A stretch of 64,000 bases of DNA. Source: a virus. Below the pieces are notes generated by a model. It made no database searches and was not told the origin of the DNA. It saw nothing but the letters and a program-made list of their open reading frames with translations. Made by a program: the position numbers and the translations under genes. The DNA lies in IMG/VR virus record IMGVR_UViG_3300045988_122441; one strand, 5' to 3'. Of this stretch, positions 12,466 through 64,000 are shown piece after piece. The first letter of the stretch is position 1. The number at the start of each line of letters is the position of its first letter.

Positions 12466-12738
12466 TTAAATTAATGCGCTCAGCTCAATAATGCACTGTT
12501 TCATTTTTTCTGCTTCTGTCATTTCGCGGATAATGAATCTAGTATGACCATCCTCGCTCCAAATGTTTGTACAGGTCATATCCTTATAATCAACACCGCC
12601 AATATTTACACTGGATAAATTGGCATCAGACAGAATCTCAATATTAACTTCATCATCTGTGATGTAGTTGTTGCCATTCAGTGTAGCGTGAATCTCTGTT
12701 CCGTTTGCGAGGATAATATTGTAAATAGTATTTTCCAT
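12466..12738 (-). CDS. hypothetical small protein
   Basis: 90 aa. GGAGG lies 9 nt upstream of ATG 12738. The start overlaps the 3' tail of the RT gene by 86 nt. Confidence 0.5.
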   Translation of the reverse strand: MENTIYNIILANGTEIHATLNGNNYITDDEVNIEILSDANLSSVNIGGVDYKDMTCTNIWSEDGHTRFIIREMTEAEKMKQCIIELSALI

Positions 12739-13966
12739 CTATAAAACCTCCAAATAAGTCGTAGTAAAGAAGATTTAAGTTGTCACGTTGTATCTTACTC
12801 ATTAAGTATGCATGACCGCCAATCCAGGAACGAAACATATTCTCTATTTCTTCCTGTGTGCGTTCGCCTCTTTGTACTTTTCTACTCAATGCTTTGAGCT
12901 TACGTCTCATATCAACAATTCTCTGTGGGTTGATTTTCCTTATCACTCTTCCTGTATCAGTGAGAGAGTAGGATATCTGCAGAAAGCGATAGTAGTCTGA
13001 TAGCTTTACTATTCTTGTTTTCTTTCTGTTCAACGTCATTCCGAGTTCTGTTGCTTTAGCTGCAATCTTAGCTTCAAGTTCAATCAGATACTCTTTGCTC
13101 TGGGAAATCACATAGCTGTCATCCATATATCTGCCGTAGAATTTCTGACCTTCAACGATCTTGACGAAATTATCTATCTGAGTTGGATAGTATATGCCGA
13201 TAATCTGGGAACACTGATCTCCGATATTTACAGATTTCCTCATGAATTTCTCGCCTGTATGAGCAGATTTTGGAACGTTCAGTCTGTAGTCAGCAGAATT
13301 GAATGGCGTTTCCATACAATGTTCATATTCCTCGTCTGTCATATACGAGACATCAATCTTAAAATTATCGAATATTAAATCCAATAACCACAGCGAAAAT
13401 TCATCATGCACATGTTTTGCAATTTCTTGATAAGCAATATCATGCGGTATATTGTCATAGAATTTGCTGTAATCCATTAAAAGTATGTAGCCGTCATTCC
13501 CGTACAGCCGATAGTATTTGTGTAGATGCTCCTCGAATCTTTGTCTGCTAAAAGTAATTCCTTTCCCTTTCAGCGACGCTCCGTTATCATAAATTAGATA
13601 GGAGAGCAGACTCGGAGCCAAAATATTATCACAAAGAGAATGGCGGATAACCCTGTCAGACATCTGTAAACCTGTAATAGGTCGTGTTTTGCCACGCTCA
13701 CTGATAATAAACTCAGTAGAAGCTTTTGACTGATATGCCCTGTCTTTTAAAGCAGCTTTACTCTTAACGATATGTGGCAAGAAATTCATTTCATATTTCT
13801 GCACTTGAGGTTTCCAATCGGAATCTTTCTTTGCAGCCAAATATGCATGATAAAGTGAGTTTAAATTATATACAACATGACACCCATCTTCAAAATGTGT
13901 GTTTGTATCTGTCATTTCTTTCCAAAATATTTGACGTGTATAGCAATCAGTCGTAACGAATTGCAT
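12653..13966 (-). CDS. DGR reverse transcriptase
   Basis: RT motifs LLMDYSKFYDNIPHD, NIGDQCSQIIG (the DGR hallmark I/LGxxxSQ), YGRYMDDSYVIS (YMDD), LNRKKTRIV. Confidence 0.9.
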   Translation of the reverse strand: MQFVTTDCYTRQIFWKEMTDTNTHFEDGCHVVYNLNSLYHAYLAAKKDSDWKPQVQKYEMNFLPHIVKSKAALKDRAYQSKASTEFIISERGKTRPITGLQMSDRVIRHSLCDNILAPSLLSYLIYDNGASLKGKGITFSRQRFEEHLHKYYRLYGNDGYILLMDYSKFYDNIPHDIAYQEIAKHVHDEFSLWLLDLIFDNFKIDVSYMTDEEYEHCMETPFNSADYRLNVPKSAHTGEKFMRKSVNIGDQCSQIIGIYYPTQIDNFVKIVEGQKFYGRYMDDSYVISQSKEYLIELEAKIAAKATELGMTLNRKKTRIVKLSDYYRFLQISYSLTDTGRVIRKINPQRIVDMRRKLKALSRKVQRGERTQEEIENMFRSWIGGHAYLMSKIQRDNLNLLYYDLFGGFIDGKYYLQYYPRKRNRDSRYTEWQQLHHR

Positions 13967-57989: not shown

Positions 57990-58001
57990 AGCAACAGTGA
58001 A

Positions 58002-58033
58002 AAGGGCGGAACACAACCGCCCTTTTTCTTTTT
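58002..58033 (+). terminator. rho-independent terminator
   Basis: AAGGGCGG-aacacaa-CCGCCCTT, followed by TTTCTTTTT. Confidence 0.8.
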
Positions 58034-58057
58034 GGATACAGTCCAAAACGTAACCCA

Positions 58058-58234
58058 CACGACAGCCGACAACTTCACAGGGGTTTTCCTAGTGGGTTAC
58101 GGTTGACAGTGTGGAACACGACAGCCGACAACTTCACAGGGGTTTTCCTAGTGGGTTACGGTTGACAGTGTGGAACACGACAGCCGACAACTTCACAGGG
58201 GTTTTCCTAGTGGGTTACGGTTGACAGTGTGGAA
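58058..58234 (+). repeat. three perfect tandem copies of a 59-bp unit
   Basis: Unit CACGACAGCCGACAACTTCACAGGGGTTTTCCTAGTGGGTTACGGTTGACAGTGTGGAA at 58058, 58117 and 58176. An inverted CGTAACCCAC lies at 58049-58058. Confidence 0.9.
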
Positions 58235-58239
58235 CACAA

Positions 58240-59040
58240 ACAAAAGACAGAGCGAAAAGGCTGAGAACTCAGAGAGTTCGCCTATGTCAGATGTGCGGTA
58301 TATAAATATGATCTGACATAGTACATAAACCGCCATGATTAATAAGTTTCTAAAGAAGAGTCTCTCTATATTGAGGGGCTTTTCTTTATGGGCTTATGTC
58401 CATACGACTGTGAGGTCTACCTGCTCACAGGTAATAAGTGCATATACCGGTATCTTTCGGGGTATCGTGAGGGCTACCTGTGTGATAGGAAATAAGTGAA
58501 CTATACCAGTTGAAGCGTTCAATATGGGAAATCCGGCAAAAGGACGCTATACAAATAGTTTCGGTGAGCCGACCTACCGACGGCTTTAGAATATCGGCAA
58601 AACTCTGCGGTTATCGTGGATTCCTTTAACCGATTTGAGGGAGTACATCTGCTATCAGATGCGTCGATGGTGCATGAGAGTTAGGCTCATGGTTTCGAGA
58701 TAGTGAAAATCCCCATAGTTCGGCAGTTCGTTAGATGTGAAACTTTGCCGCATAATCCTGAGTGCGTCAACATGAGGGATAGCAGGAAAAATCTGTTGAG
58801 GTTTCCAATCGTAGTGGTATCAGTACCCGAGGGTACATCGGCTATGTTCCGAGGAATTAAATGCCGGACTATTGCGGGATTTCCGATGCAGACGGAGTAT
58901 AGCGAAATAAAACTGAATATTAAGCGGAGTGTGCAAACATTCCGATAAACCTATATTGAGCGTCCGAGATTGTGTATATCGCATGGTTTCGGGCGTTCTC
59001 TTATGGGCTTATCCCATGTAACAAAGAAAATAGAGAATCC
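58240..59040 (+). ncRNA. candidate large structured non-coding RNA region (family unassigned)
   Basis: About 800 nt with only one weak GTG-started ORF. Appears more GC-rich than neighbouring DNA (by eye, not counted). Many hairpins. Two long stems (58356-58383, 58960-58996) pair fully only in plus sense because they need G-U pairs. An internal duplicated ~60-nt module is present. Confidence 0.4.
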
Positions 59041-59056
59041 AGGAGGAAAATCATTA

Positions 59057-59799
59057 TGGCAGAAAGTAAGAAAACAAAAGCAGAACTTCGTGAGACTGCT
59101 GAGGCTCTGTGCAGAGAGTATAACGACAATATTCAGAATGGGAATTTCCAGGAAACTACCAGACTGAACGACGAAATCGAGCAGGCGGTAAATGAGTATA
59201 CATCTATCGCAAAAGAAGAGTGCTTCGAGGCTCTCAAGGCAACTGAAAATCCTATGCTTGAGGCTGTAAAACAGCTGACATTCCCGACAATCCGTGCAAG
59301 AGATACAAAGCAGGGTGACGAAAAGATTCCGGTTAGGGTAATTGAGGATATCGAGAGACCTATCGACCTGCTGAAATTACATAAGGCAACTGAGGGTGGT
59401 ATCGGCGCAGACAAGAACTGGGCTTATAAGGTGGAGAAGCTGAACTTCCTGCTGACTGCTCAGAAAGCAAAGGATCTGGGTATCGACCCGAAAGAGGTAA
59501 ATGACAGCTTTGCTATGGCTGACATTTCTAAGGAAATCGACATGGGTAAGAATCCGACATCAAAGACAAACCTGCTGAAAACTCTGAACGTAGTTATTCA
59601 GGCTATGATCGGAGAGGAATATAAGGCGGTATCTCATGACGTGAACTTCCTGATGTCCGTATTTTCACGGAAAAATCGTGCGGCTTTAACTGTATCATGT
59701 GCAAACCACAAATATATGCGCCAGTATTGTGCGGAAATTTGTCACCGTATCGTAATGGGCGAGACTTACAAGATCGAGTTCCGCAAGATTCGTAAGTAA
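59057..59799 (+). CDS. hypothetical protein
   Basis: AGGAGG at 59041-59046, then ATG 59057 (MAESKKTKAELRE..). The ORF-track start at 58972 lies inside the structured region and is unlikely. Confidence 0.55.
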
Positions 59800-59810
59800 T
59801 CAGGGGATTT

Positions 59811-59867
59811 CCCACACTGATGAGCCGGAATAACGGCGAAACCGTCGGGAATCCGGCGGTCTGTGGG
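59811..59867 (+). ncRNA. hammerhead self-cleaving ribozyme (stem I open, type I topology)
   Basis: Stem I CCCACA / UGUGGG. Core CUGAUGA. Stem II GCCG-gaauaa-CGGC. GAAA. Stem III CCGUCGG-gaau-CCGGCGG. Then UC, with predicted cleavage after C59861. Every invariant core position is canonical. Confidence 0.85.
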
Positions 59868-59923
59868 TATTACACAAATAGCGAAAACCGATAGGTAAAA
59901 GCAGAAAGTGAGGCAATCAATCT

Positions 59924-60358
59924 ATGAGTGCAATGAGTATTGAGGAAATGCGGGAATATATGTCCCGTCCGGAGGGAAATTGTTGGGTAGGCGTGAGCAT
60001 GGCTAATGGCAATACAGCCATGGTTTCTCGCTACGGAATCACAGAGGAATTTATCTGTGAGTATGATGGGGAATCTTACGGTGATGAGATGGAAACTGAC
60101 GATCTGGACAAGGCTTTGAGATGGTTATGGAATCGCAAGGCAAATAAGGGTGGTATGAGTTTCTTGGTTTTCCGTCGGAGAGTTGAGCAGATGGTTAAAC
60201 GAGCTGGCGGTGGGATTTCTGTATCGTACAGAGCCGACCGGGAAAATGGCAGGCATATCGCAAGCTGCTCTGATGGTACAAAAATCATCGGTAGCACAAG
60301 CAGTTTAAAGGTTTCTGTTCGCTGGGGTTCCGGTCACGCAGCAGTGGCGGAATTGTAG
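59924..60358 (+). CDS. hypothetical protein
   Basis: 144-aa ORF after the ribozyme. No motif recognised. Confidence 0.5.
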   Translation: MSAMSIEEMREYMSRPEGNCWVGVSMANGNTAMVSRYGITEEFICEYDGESYGDEMETDDLDKALRWLWNRKANKGGMSFLVFRRRVEQMVKRAGGGISVSYRADRENGRHIASCSDGTKIIGSTSSLKVSVRWGSGHAAVAEL

Positions 60359-60384
60359 GCGGCTGTGAAAAGAGGTGTTTATGC

Positions 60385-60597
60385 GTGGGAAAAGCATATT
60401 TCACTATGCAGGAAATTCAGACATTAAAGCTGTATGAGTTGCCTACGAGGATTTATGAGGCAATTATCAGCGAGTTAGCACTTATCTTATGCGGTGGGGA
60501 AATCCTGCCGCTGATGTTACACGCAATAGTAGACAATGCAACATTAGCAGATTTAGATCAGTATGTAGATATCTATAAATTTGTGAAGATTATTTGA
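60385..60597 (+). CDS. small hypothetical protein
   Basis: 70 aa. GTG start 7 nt after AAGAGGTG. Confidence 0.4.
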   Translation: MGKAYFTMQEIQTLKLYELPTRIYEAIISELALILCGGEILPLMLHAIVDNATLADLDQYVDIYKFVKII

Positions 60598-60890
60598 TGA
60601 GGTTAATTATGCATTACACAGAATTTGATGAATGCGACGGAATGAGTCGCGAGGAATGGTTAGAATATCGCAGGGAAATCAGCAGAGAAGAACGAGAAGA
60701 AGAAGTTGAGCATCAAACGAAAATGATTTTTCAGAGGTTAATTGGAATTGGAATGCTCTTGCTTAGCGTTCTGATTTTCGTGGTCGCAAGCCATGCACAG
60801 GTAAGAGGTGACTTAGATGGTACTCCTCTTTTTATCACAGTACCATTGGGATTATACATGCTGTTCTCAAAAGAGTGCTGCATAGTTTAG
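60594..60890 (+). CDS. small membrane protein
   Basis: Acidic N-terminus and two hydrophobic helices (GIGMLLLSVLIFVVA; PLFITVPLGLYMLF). An alternative ATG start is at 60610. Confidence 0.45.
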   Translation: MMRLIMHYTEFDECDGMSREEWLEYRREISREEREEEVEHQTKMIFQRLIGIGMLLLSVLIFVVASHAQVRGDLDGTPLFITVPLGLYMLFSKECCIV

Positions 60891-60900
60891 GAGGTGCGCT

Positions 60901-61491
60901 ATGAAAGTATATAGAACTTCCGAGGTTTTAGCCGGAGGTAAATACGAGGTAGGCGATATCGTCAGTTACACAATGGAAGATGGCGAAGAAGTAGAGGCAT
61001 TAGCAGTAAAAGAGGAATTTGATAAACATGGGAATCTATGTATGGTATTCATACTTTTGGATTGTCTGAAAGAGGAATGCCGGATGAACCGTGATGATAC
61101 GAATGATGGAGGGTATGAGGAATCATATCTGAGAGAGCAACTCAGGACGGAATATCTTGAAAGATTTCCGGCATCATTGCGGTTGAATATGGTTCCGTTT
61201 GAAAACGGAGATCTGCTGAGAATCCCTACGGAACGTGAAGTTTTTGGAGAGAACAGATACGGTGAGGAAGAGCCGGATACGGTAGAACAATTCGAGGCGA
61301 TGAAAAAGAGAAGGAACCGTATGGCACTTGATGGGTCAAATGGTGGAACTCAGGCTTATTGGTTACAGAACAAACGTGTGAGGTCTGCGACTTACTTCTG
61401 TTGTGTGAACACCAACGGCTATGCGAACACCAACAACGCGTCTAATTCTCTTGGCGTTCGTCCGCTTTACAGAATCCGTAATTATCGGTAA
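60901..61491 (+). CDS. DGR target 2: small protein with a C-terminal C-type-lectin-fold variable region
   Basis: AGGAGG precedes ATG 60901. The C-terminus YWLQNKRVRSATYFCCVNTNGYANTNNASNSLGVRP is encoded by VR2. No signal peptide seen. Confidence 0.8.
   Translation: MKVYRTSEVLAGGKYEVGDIVSYTMEDGEEVEALAVKEEFDKHGNLCMVFILLDCLKEECRMNRDDTNDGGYEESYLREQLRTEYLERFPASLRLNMVPFENGDLLRIPTEREVFGENRYGEEEPDTVEQFEAMKKRRNRMALDGSNGGTQAYWLQNKRVRSATYFCCVNTNGYANTNNASNSLGVRPLYRIRNYR
61376..61464 (+). repeat. DGR variable repeat 2 (VR2), remote from the cassette
   Basis: 89 nt aligned to TR (14150-14062, minus sense). Eight differences, all at TR adenines. All non-A positions are identical, including the 3' GGCGTTCGTCCG. 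Confidence 0.85.
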
Positions 61492-63109: not shown

Positions 63110-63158
63110 CCACAACAAGCCGACGATCTTTTCGTCGGTATGCTTACCTATGCTCGGC
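63108..63158 (+). repeat. 51-bp element, copy 1 (contains the hairpin CCGACGA-tctt-TCGTCGG)
   Basis: AACCACAACAAGCCGACGATCTTTTCGTCGGTATGCTTACCTATGCTCGGC is identical at 63950-64000. Confidence 0.85.
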
Positions 63159-63949: not shown

Positions 63950-64000
63950 AACCACAACAAGCCGACGATCTTTTCGTCGGTATGCTTACCTATGCTCGGC
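63950..64000 (+). repeat. 51-bp element, copy 2 (runs into the window edge)
   Basis: Identical to 63108-63158. Again starts at the stop codon of the preceding gene. Confidence 0.85.

What the first reader, a model, noticed from the sequence alone, without database searches (positions are those of the whole stretch)
59811..59867. Canonical hammerhead ribozyme in the spacer between two early genes
The plus strand reads CCCACA-CUGAUGA-GCCG(gaauaa)CGGC-GAAA-CCGUCGG(gaau)CCGGCGG-UC-UGUGGG. All invariant hammerhead positions are canonical: C3-A9, G10.1/C11.1, G12-A14, A15.1/U16.1 and H17=C. The three stems have 6, 4 and 7 bp. Stem I is the open stem. Cleavage after C59861 would sever the transcript 62 nt after the stop of the 59057-59799 gene and 62 nt before the next start codon. 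That uncouples the two mRNAs and leaves defined 2',3'-cyclic phosphate and 5'-OH ends.
Basis: partly seen in the sequence, partly recalled or inferred. Interest (0 to 1): 0.75.

Follow-up and report, generated by a model that had tools for sequence, protein, structure and literature searches.

The report
Type I hammerhead ribozyme between phage genes
The 57-nt stretch is a genuine, evolutionarily conserved self-cleaving hammerhead RNA motif sitting between two co-transcribed genes of a gut Clostridia phage; it is a well-supported new example of a kind of element already known to be common in phage genomes, whose exact benefit is still unproven.

Summary
Window 59811-59867 (+) reads exactly as reported. 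It has every invariant hammerhead core position and stems of 6, 4 and 7 bp, plus the A15.1-U16.1 pair. C17 is at 59861, 62 nt after the upstream stop and 62 nt before the next ATG. The only error is the upstream gene start, which is 59056, not 59057.

Chance is excluded. A relaxed type I descriptor hits 1 of 300 shuffled windows. In 24 distinct orthologous copies, 97.5% of cells pair and 11 of 17 pairs show compensatory changes (0 of 500 shuffles reach this).

The motif is part of a conserved phage module: RAGATH-16 RNA, a 247-aa protein of unknown fold, the hammerhead, then a small 'WGSGH' protein. A hammerhead follows the 247-aa gene in 33 of 56 viral loci and in about 8 of 15 MAG loci. Relatives also carry near-threshold twister-P1 and weak HDV-like matches at neighbouring gene junctions.

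No Rfam hammerhead model reaches its gathering score (best is HH9, 31.6 bits against 52).

The most likely role is co-transcriptional self-cleavage that separates the two mRNAs. Phage intergenic hammerheads have been described since 2011, so this is a new member of a known kind and of modest interest. Cleavage itself is untested.

The parts
59811..59867 (+). Complete type I hammerhead ribozyme motif (stem I open; stems II and III capped by loops)
   Evidence: Sequence. My own structural parse gives 6/4/7 bp. Rfam HH9 scores 31.6 bits, E = 4.4e-6 locally. The family covariance model R1 scores 68.7 bits, though the window is a seed sequence.
59811..59816 (+). Stem I, 5' strand (CCCACA); pairs with 59862-59867
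   Evidence: All six pairs are kept in all homologues. Changes seen include A-U to G-U, G-C and C-G.
59817..59823 (+). Catalytic core C3-A9 (CUGAUGA)
   Evidence: Invariant in orthologues except N7 (U to C in L168, L174, L180), which is the one free core position.
59824..59837 (+). Stem II (GCCG/CGGC, G10.1-C11.1) with hexaloop GAAUAA
   Evidence: Stem II covaries in relatives (GCCG, GUCGU, GUCUU, GCCU). The loop becomes GNRA (GUAA or GGAA) in the closest relatives.
59838..59841 (+). Core G12 A13 A14 plus A15.1
   Evidence: Invariant in all aligned copies.
59842..59859 (+). Stem III (CCGUCGG/CCGGCGG, 7 bp with one U.G) with loop GAAU
   Evidence: 5 of the 7 stem III pairs scored (6 of these 7 bp plus A15.1-U16.1; the loop-closing pair is not in the model) show compensatory changes among orthologues.
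59860..59862 (+). U16.1, C17 (59861) and N1.1 (59862). The predicted scissile bond lies between 59861 and 59862.
   Evidence: Position follows from the hammerhead numbering applied. H17 is C in 59 and A in 8 of 67 distinct family members, and never G (the descriptor itself excludes G).
59868..59871 (+). UAUU immediately 3' of stem I; candidate 4-bp pseudoknot partner of AAUA in loop II (59829-59832). Alternatively part of a 3-bp extension of stem I (59806-59808 with 59869-59871).
   Evidence: Complementarity of loop II to the 3' tail is enriched in the phage type I set: at least 5 bp in 24 of 145 copies against 11.2 +/- 2.8 after permutation. Orthologues have 5-7 bp (L133, L134, L160, L171). 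In the window it is only 4 bp and not significant on its own. The stem I extension was seen.
59056..59799 (+). Upstream gene A: 247-aa conserved phage protein of unknown function. Its mRNA would end in the ribozyme body.
   Evidence: Frame and start. More than 800 homologues, with no Pfam, PHROG or PDB hit. AlphaFold2 model at pLDDT 86 with no PDB fold match.
59924..60358 (+). Downstream gene B: 144-aa protein whose conserved C-terminal part carries a 'WGSGH' motif. Its mRNA would start with 5'-OH U59862.
   Evidence: Homologues follow the hammerhead in most related loci.
59908..59913 (+). Likely ribosome-binding site GUGAGG of gene B, retained on the 3' cleavage product
   Evidence: Read directly and invariant in the closest relatives. 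The assignment as an RBS is an inference.
58646..58718 (+). RAGATH-16 RNA motif in the leader of the same transcription unit, 337 nt upstream of gene A
   Evidence: 89.8 bits against a gathering score of 65.6. Found at the same relative position in most related loci.
57999..58027 (+). Strong intrinsic-terminator-like hairpin ending the preceding sigma/HTH-like gene. It marks the upstream boundary of the unit that contains the ribozyme.
   Evidence: 11-bp stem followed by a T-run.

Best explanation
This is a functional type I hammerhead self-cleaving ribozyme in the 124-nt spacer between two co-transcribed genes of a tailed phage of gut Clostridia.

Proposed mechanism:
- As the polycistronic RNA is made, the motif folds into the three-way junction.
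- The 2'-OH of C59861 attacks its 3' phosphate.
- The transcript is cut between 59861 and 59862.

Because the topology is type I, almost the whole ribozyme stays on the 3' end of the gene A mRNA. That includes stems II and III and a 2',3'-cyclic phosphate. The stop codon of gene A remains intact, 62 nt upstream of the cut.

The gene B mRNA begins with a 5'-OH and six nucleotides of former stem I. It keeps a 62-nt leader with its RBS. The two messages can then differ in lifetime and translation.

What is shown and what is inferred:
- Shown: the motif, its conservation under selection, its covariation, its position, and the presence of other ribozyme-class matches at neighbouring junctions in relatives.
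- Inferred: cleavage in vivo, the direction of any effect on expression, and the tertiary contact that would make cleavage fast at cellular Mg2+.
For: (1) All invariant positions and pairs next to the core are canonical.

(2) Chance is excluded. The Rfam hammerhead models match significantly, although below threshold.

(3) Orthology. A hammerhead lies 15-334 nt downstream of gene A homologues (39-100% identity), always on the gene strand. This holds in 33 of 56 viral loci and about 8 of 15 MAG loci.

(4) Covariation:
- 17 hand-checked sequences: 97.3% of cells paired, 12 of 18 pairs compensatory, 0 of 500 shuffles as good, and register slides drop to 30-57%.
- 24 distinct rows aligned to the covariance model: 97.5% paired, 11 of 17 pairs compensatory.
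- The only core variation is at N7.

(5) Family-wide placement between cistrons: a median of 2 nt after a stop codon and 37 nt before the next RBS and start.

(6) No terminator-like or promoter-like site lies between gene A and gene B. A strong terminator and a promoter-like site lie upstream of the unit.

(7) In relatives, twister-P1 matches (48-64 bits, just below the gathering score of 67.2) flank gene B or lie just upstream of RAGATH-16. Weaker HDV-like matches (about 610-680 nt upstream of gene A) occur in the loci that lack RAGATH-16. RAGATH-16, RAGATH-4 and RAGATH-36 mark the locus as the published 'ribozyme-associated' neighbourhood.

(8) Published proposal of exactly this role for prophage hammerheads: PMC3088659 and PMC6765202.
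Against: - No cleavage assay or transcript-end data exist for this locus.
- The motif fails every Rfam hammerhead gathering score (HH9 31.6 against 52; RAGATH-1-hammerhead 26 against 56.3).
- Stem I is only 6 bp, and no tertiary contact between stem I and loop II is established. The candidate pseudoknot is 4 bp and is absent from the GNRA-loop relatives. Cleavage could therefore be slow at about 1 mM Mg2+.
- An alternative hairpin is 2.1 kcal/mol more stable for the isolated 57-mer.
- About 40% of orthologous loci have no hammerhead at this junction, so it is dispensable for the module.
- The physiological consequence is unknown. In Firmicutes a 5'-OH end can be a target of RNase J1 rather than a protection (glmS precedent, from established knowledge). 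The sign of the effect on gene B cannot be predicted.
Confidence: 0.78

Rival explanations
1. The motif is a real hammerhead sequence but a neutral or selfish passenger. It spreads among phages by recombination, cleaves or not, and gives the phage no benefit in regulating genes A and B.
For: Its distribution is patchy. It is absent from about 40% of orthologous junctions, and its distance from gene A varies from 15 to 334 nt. Near-identical stem II and core sequences occur in at least 119 stretches on viral contigs in unrelated contexts, sometimes 3-4 copies per contig. The literature notes an association of ribozymes with selfish elements (PMC3088659).
Against: The core is invariant, and all three stems are kept by compensatory change over protein divergence down to 39% identity. 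This indicates purifying selection on the fold. Placement is consistent: on the gene strand, after the stop codon and before the RBS. Other ribozyme-class matches sit at neighbouring junctions.
Confidence: 0.12
2. The functional structure is the alternative long hairpin, in which 59824-59829 pairs with 59852-59857 and 59834-59838 pairs with 59843-59847. It would act as an RNase III or stability hairpin, or as a weak terminator, and the hammerhead resemblance would be incidental.
For: It is the minimum-free-energy fold of the isolated 57-mer, at -30.0 against -27.9 kcal/mol, z = -5.1.
Against: In orthologues the helix specific to this fold is paired in only 67.6% of cells, with compensatory change at only 1 of its 6 pairs. 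The apparent support comes from the shared stem I. There is no U-tract and no terminator-like call in 59800-59923. In longer contexts, stems II and III of the hammerhead are in the minimum-free-energy fold. This fold does not explain the invariant CUGANGA and GAAA.
Confidence: 0.03
3. The hammerhead works together with other processing elements to release an RNA with a 5'-OH at one end and a 2',3'-cyclic phosphate at the other. That RNA would then be ligated or circularised by a host RtcB-type ligase, or used as a non-coding RNA, rather than simply separating two mRNAs.
For: In the L137 clade, gene B is bracketed by the hammerhead and a twister-P1 match. These ends are the substrates of RtcB-type ligases (established knowledge). 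The idea was raised, but no product was detected, in PMC3088659.
Against: The window has only one ribozyme hit. Nothing was found after gene B or before RAGATH-16 at E <= 1. Perreault et al. found no spliced or circular product.
Confidence: 0.05

Closest known systems
Intergenic hammerhead ribozymes of bacteriophages and prophages (Perreault et al. 2011, PMC3088659; genomic neighbourhoods of Weinberg et al. 2015, cited from memory and from the reference list seen)
   Same: Canonical core. Located between phage genes on the coding strand. Ribozymes flank single genes or short gene blocks. Loop-tail pseudoknots act as the tertiary contact in many copies. Co-occurs with RAGATH motifs and twister.
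   Different: This particular copy and its gene A / gene B module were not found described in the searchable literature. Stem I is very short (6 bp; 4-7 bp in the family). All copies examined score below the Rfam gathering thresholds.
Rfam Hammerhead_HH9 (RF02275), the best-scoring Rfam model
   Same: Type I topology and an identical core; full-length alignment to the model.
   Different: As I recall, HH9 is a conserved intronic ribozyme of amniotes. Its extended stem I does not align here (mismatched pairs are flagged). The score is 31.6 bits against a gathering score of 52. The window copy is not a member of that subfamily.
Type-P1 twister ribozymes in the same phage module
   Same: In relatives, twister-P1 matches occupy neighbouring intercistronic positions: after gene B, or upstream of RAGATH-16. 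This implies the same job, which is cutting the polycistronic RNA.
   Different: A different fold and catalytic core. None is present in the window.
glmS ribozyme of Firmicutes (established knowledge: Collins et al. 2007, not read here)
   Same: Self-cleavage inside an mRNA leader produces a 5'-OH downstream fragment in a Gram-positive host, and the new end determines mRNA fate.
   Different: glmS needs a metabolite cofactor and down-regulates its gene through RNase J1. Here no ligand is implied, and the direction of the effect on gene B is unknown.
Schistosoma and satellite-type type I hammerheads
   Same: Stem I is open, and loop II is available for a tertiary contact.
   Different: Those use a bulge or internal loop in a long stem I. 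Here stem I is 6 bp, and the contact, if any, is a short pseudoknot between loop II and the 3' tail or a 3-bp stem extension.

Membership tests
Hammerhead ribozyme class | Conserved core nucleotides C3 U4 G5 A6 N7 G8 A9, G12 A13 A14, and H17 (not G) | tested here: met
   CUGAUGA at 59817-59823, GAA at 59838-59840, C17 at 59861. In orthologues only N7 varies.
Hammerhead ribozyme class | Three helices radiating from the core, with paired N1.1-N2.1, N10.1-N11.1 and A15.1-U16.1 | tested here: met
   U59862-A59816, G59824-C59837 and A59841-U59860 are paired. Stems are 6, 4 and 7 bp.
Hammerhead ribozyme class | Helices supported by compensatory changes in homologues | tested here: met
   97.3-97.5% of cells paired; 11-12 pairs with changes on both sides; 0 of 500 shuffles as good; register slides give 28-59%. 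The rival fold is not supported.
Hammerhead ribozyme class | Type I topology (stem I open; stems II and III closed by loops) | tested here: met
   Loop II is GAAUAA and loop III is GAAU. The 5' and 3' ends leave through stem I.
Hammerhead ribozyme class | Tertiary contact between stem I and loop II that gives fast cleavage at physiological Mg2+ | tested here: inconclusive
   AAUA (59829-59832) is complementary to UAUU (59868-59871). This type of contact is enriched in the family (24 of 145 with at least 5 bp against 11.2 +/- 2.8). In the window it is only 4 bp, and it is absent in the GNRA-loop relatives.
Hammerhead ribozyme class | Site-specific self-cleavage giving 2',3'-cyclic phosphate and 5'-OH ends | not testable with these tools
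   Needs in vitro transcription and cleavage, or end-specific RNA-seq.
Rfam hammerhead families (RF02275 HH9; RF03152 RAGATH-1-hammerhead; clan CL00010) | Bit score at or above the curated gathering score | tested here: not met
   HH9 scores 31.6 against 52. RAGATH-1-hammerhead scores 26 against 56.3. There is no hammerhead hit at gathering thresholds. Related type I copies in other loci also fail; only the type II copies in L079 pass.
Ribozyme-associated ('RAGATH') phage gene neighbourhood | A RAGATH motif or other self-cleaving ribozyme in the same gene block | tested here: met
   RAGATH-16 scores 89.8 bits against 65.6 at 58646-58718. RAGATH-4, RAGATH-36 and sub-threshold twister-P1 and HDV-like matches occur in orthologous loci.
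Intrinsic (Rho-independent) terminator | G+C-rich hairpin followed directly by a U-run | tested here: not met
   No terminator-like site in 59800-59923. The sequence after the hairpin is UCUGUGGGUAUUAC.
RAGATH-18 / IS607 TnpB guide RNA (reRNA) | Covariance-model score at or above gathering, and an adjacent tnpB gene | tested here: not met
   15.8 bits against 44.9, E = 4.8, at 59860-59907. The upstream protein has no TnpB or any other domain. The family identity comes from PMC11061315.

The most novel reading that the evidence does not exclude
The hammerhead may be one interchangeable unit of a dedicated 'mRNA individualisation' cassette in gut Clostridia phages.

The cassette begins after a terminator and a perfect 59-bp tandem repeat. 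Each small gene in it (gene A, gene B and so on) would be cut out of the primary transcript by whichever self-cleaving class happens to sit at the junction: hammerhead, twister-P1 or HDV-like.

On this reading, the still-uncharacterised RAGATH-16, RAGATH-4 and RAGATH-36 RNAs and the fold-orphan 247-aa protein are functional partners. RAGATH-16 might act as a processing or stability element, and gene A might encode an RNA-binding or end-handling protein. They would not be mere neighbours.
Probability: 0.2. Interest if true: 0.55.

Novelty: new member of a known kind. Interest (0 to 1): 0.3.

Why it matters
Self-cleaving ribozymes are abundant in phage genomes, yet no biological role has been demonstrated for them (PMC6765202).

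This locus offers a clean, genetically simple test case:
- one canonical hammerhead;
- a defined pair of flanking genes;
- natural 'knock-out' relatives that lack the ribozyme;
- relatives that carry matches to other ribozyme classes at neighbouring junctions.

It also shows that a large set of short-stem-I type I hammerheads in phage contigs falls below the Rfam thresholds. Routine annotation therefore under-counts them. As a discovery in itself it is incremental.

Tried and rejected
- Megablast of 58000-61000 against the GenBank phage collection gave no match, so no annotated relative was available.
- Pfam, PHROGs, PDB sequence search, an AlphaFold2 model and Foldseek for gene A gave no function. 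There were only two uncharacterised Siphoviridae fold matches.
- The RAGATH-18 lead at 59860-59907 was rejected as chance. RAGATH-18 is the guide RNA of IS607 TnpB, the match has E = 4.8, and no TnpB gene is present.
- The alternative long hairpin was rejected by the comparative test.
- A conserved structure in the 62-nt leader of gene B was not supported. RNAalifold gave -9.1 kcal/mol, with only one compensatory pair, in a small hairpin at about 59888-59897.
- A second ribozyme in the window was looked for and not found, either with Rfam at E <= 1 or with my own model R1.
- The literature searches found nothing on RAGATH-16 and no recent functional study of phage hammerheads. Weinberg et al. 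2015 is not in the held library.
- The GGUUUUY motif seen in hammerhead-less spacers is not enriched in the window overall: 18 occurrences against 16 expected. Three of the copies belong to the 59-bp tandem repeat.

Full report
**Observation**

In hammerhead numbering:
- C3-A9 is 59817-59823.
- G10.1-C11.1 is 59824/59837.
- G12-A14 is 59838-59840.
- A15.1-U16.1 is 59841/59860.
- C17 is 59861.
- N1.1-N2.1 is U59862-A59816.

Stems I, II and III have 6, 4 and 7 bp, and stem III includes one U.G pair. The upstream ORF ends with TAA at 59797-59799 and the next ORF starts with ATG at 59924. The predicted scissile bond (59861/59862) is therefore 62 nt from each, as stated.

The only slip is the start of the upstream gene. 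The frame and its homologues put the ATG at 59056 (MAESKK...), and 59057 is out of frame. Nothing longer than 38 codons overlaps the motif on either strand.

**Is it more than chance?**

- A structural descriptor for type I hammerheads finds this site and no other in the window. Loosened to stems of at least 4/3/3 bp, it hits only 1 of 300 dinucleotide-preserving shuffles.
- At Rfam gathering thresholds no hammerhead is reported.
- With E-value reporting, Hammerhead_HH9 aligns end to end at 31.6 bits (gathering score 52). E is 4.4e-6 in a 501-nt search and 5.6e-4 for the whole window. RAGATH-1-hammerhead scores 26 bits.
- The isolated 57-mer has a minimum-free-energy fold that is not the hammerhead. 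It is a long hairpin at -30.0 kcal/mol, against -27.9 kcal/mol for the hammerhead. With natural flanks, stems II and III are part of the optimum.

**Comparative evidence**

The window is a tailed phage. It encodes terminase, portal, tape measure, endolysin, integrase and NrdD. It has no close relative among deposited phage genomes.

Using the downstream protein I found six IMG/VR relatives. All carry the motif with an invariant core. In them loop II is GNRA (GUAA or GGAA), and one has an A-U to G-U change in stem I.

A pattern scan of viral contigs for the core plus this stem II returned at least 119 stretches of DNA. Of 131 matches, 96 parse as type I hammerheads, giving 67 distinct sequences. 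Stem I is only 4-7 bp, H17 is C in 59 and A in 8, and stems I and III are highly variable but always paired. These copies sit a median of 2 nt after the stop of an upstream ORF. They sit a median of 37 nt (interquartile range 30-61) before the next RBS and start.

The upstream gene A (247 aa) has more than 800 homologues and no Pfam, PHROG or PDB relative. Using an alignment of gene A, I collected 56 viral loci and 15 MAG loci at 39-100% identity. The MAGs are almost all gut Clostridia: Ruminococcus, Oscillospiraceae, Acutalibacteraceae, Roseburia and Tyzzerella.

A type I hammerhead lies 15-334 nt after gene A, on the gene strand, in 33 of 56 viral and about 8 of 15 MAG loci.

Covariation was measured in two ways:
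- On a MAFFT alignment of 17 distinct copies, the hammerhead structure pairs 97.3% of cells. Twelve of 18 pairs have changes on both sides, no shuffle of 500 does as well, and sliding the register drops pairing to 30-57%.
- On the alignment fitted to the covariance model (24 distinct rows), the figures are 97.5% paired and 11 of 17 pairs compensatory.

The only core position that varies is N7 (U to C), which is the one that is free to vary. The rival long hairpin fares poorly on the same alignment. Its specific helix is paired in 67.6% of cells, with compensatory change at only one of its six pairs.

**Context**

Gene A, the hammerhead and gene B are part of a conserved module.
- RAGATH-16 (89.8 bits against a gathering score of 65.6) lies at 58646-58718. 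It recurs at the same relative position in most related loci.
- RAGATH-4 sometimes lies between RAGATH-16 and gene A. RAGATH-36 lies about 1 kb downstream in one clade.
- In relatives, twister-P1 matches (48-64 bits, gathering score 67.2, E down to 2.5e-12) lie just after gene B or just upstream of RAGATH-16.
- Loci without RAGATH-16 have an HDV-like match about 610-680 nt upstream of gene A.

Several ribozyme classes therefore appear to occupy the intercistronic junctions of one module. This argues that RNA scission, not a particular sequence, is what is selected.

In the window the unit starts after a strong terminator (57999-58027) and a promoter-like site (58284-58312). No terminator-like or promoter-like site lies between gene A and gene B. 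The two genes are therefore most likely co-transcribed through the ribozyme.

**Mechanism, with its basis marked**

Shown:
- the motif;
- selection on its fold;
- its intercistronic placement.

Inferred from the established chemistry of the hammerhead class:
- Cleavage occurs 3' of C59861.
- This gives gene A mRNA a 3' end that carries stems II and III and a 2',3'-cyclic phosphate. Its stop codon stays intact 62 nt upstream, so ribosomes can terminate normally.
- Gene B mRNA gets a 5'-OH end, six nucleotides of former stem I and a 62-nt leader with its RBS (GUGAGG, 59908-59913).

Inferred more weakly:
- The purpose is to give the two messages different stability or translation. This was proposed for prophage hammerheads (PMC3088659; PMC6765202).
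- The direction of the effect cannot be predicted. In Firmicutes a 5'-OH end can recruit RNase J1 (glmS precedent, from my own knowledge).

Fast cleavage at cellular Mg2+ normally needs a contact between stem I and loop II. Several orthologues have an obvious 5-7 bp pseudoknot between loop II and the tail just 3' of stem I (L133, L134, L160/L164, L171). Such complementarity is enriched in the family: at least 5 bp in 24 of 145 copies against 11.2 +/- 2.8 after permutation.

The window has only AAUA (59829-59832) against UAUU (59868-59871). The alternative is a 3-bp extension of stem I across a U/UU internal loop. This point is open.

**Comparison with what is known, and verdict**

Intergenic hammerheads in phages and prophages were described in 2011. 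That work covered ribozymes flanking single genes, pseudoknot tertiary contacts and the mRNA-processing hypothesis (PMC3088659). The RAGATH motifs take their name from such neighbourhoods.

The element meets every sequence and structure criterion of the hammerhead class that can be tested here. It does not meet the gathering score of any Rfam hammerhead family and is not an HH9-subfamily member. Catalysis is untested.

I rate it a new member of a known kind. The label 'early' for the genes is without evidence. Interest is modest, at about 0.3. The most interesting residue is the module itself, which combines several ribozyme classes, three orphan RAGATH RNAs and a fold-orphan protein.

Gene A gave a confident AlphaFold2 model (pLDDT 86) with no PDB fold match. 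Only two uncharacterised siphovirus proteins matched it in BFVD.

Noticed in passing
window 58646-58718 (+): RAGATH-16 RNA (89.8 bits, gathering score 65.6) lies in the long non-coding leader (58238-59055) of the same unit. It recurs at the same relative position (roughly 340-500 nt) upstream of gene A homologues in most related loci. No function was found for it in the searchable literature.
   Followed up: partly
window 58057-58237 (+): A perfect 59-bp tandem repeat of 3.1 copies (TRF score 362). Each unit contains TTGACA and GGTTTTC. It lies directly after the terminator at 57999-58027 and before the promoter-like site at 58284-58312. Many related contigs end a few hundred nt upstream of gene A (gene A starts 40-1160 nt, mostly 440-860 nt, from the contig end), so this could be an assembly break point, a genome terminus, or iterons.
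   Followed up: partly
L157:3607-3671, L175:3595-3659 and 1875-1929; also L137-L167 clades: Type-P1 twister matches (48-64 bits, just under the gathering score of 67.2) lie after gene B or just upstream of RAGATH-16. In the L137 clade gene B is bracketed by a hammerhead and a twister match.
   Followed up: partly
L136:1817-1893, L147, L150:174-249, L170, L173: HDV-like matches (HDV-F-prausnitzii 32-35 bits against a gathering score of 44; CPEB3 25-28 bits) lie about 610-680 nt upstream of gene A. They occur exactly in the loci scanned with Rfam that lack RAGATH-16 (L173 was not scanned). This may indicate functional replacement.
   Followed up: no
window 59056-59799 (+): Gene A is a highly conserved 247-aa phage protein with more than 800 homologues and no Pfam, PHROG or PDB relative. 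A confident AlphaFold2 model (pLDDT 86, pTM 0.79) has no PDB fold match. It is an orphan fold tightly linked to ribozymes.
   Followed up: partly
window 59888-59897 (+) and 59862-59876: In the gene B leader, a small hairpin (A)CCGAUAGG(U) changes to (G)CCGUAUGG(C) in relatives, which is one compensatory pair. The 5' end of the cleavage product could form UGUG...CACA. Overall support for a leader structure is weak.
   Followed up: partly
window 63120-63138 and 63962-63980 (-): An identical hairpin plus tail (CCGACGAAAAGATCGTCGG CTTGTTGTGG) occurs twice, 842 nt apart.
   Followed up: no
window 12653-13966 (-): A reverse-transcriptase gene (phrog_1423, E = 1.9e-60) lies next to the tail-fibre region. 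This may be a diversity-generating retroelement.
   Followed up: no
L131:3230-3420, L132:1390-1670: The spacers between genes A and B that lack a hammerhead are long (about 200-285 nt) and rich in repeated GGUUUUY motifs. The same motif flanks many hammerheads in other clades. It may be a protein-binding or pause signal.
   Followed up: partly
L007-L125 (viral contigs), e.g. L030, L079: None of the short-stem-I type I hammerheads examined passes an Rfam gathering threshold; only type II copies do. Some contigs carry 3-4 copies, one after each of several consecutive small genes.
   Followed up: partly
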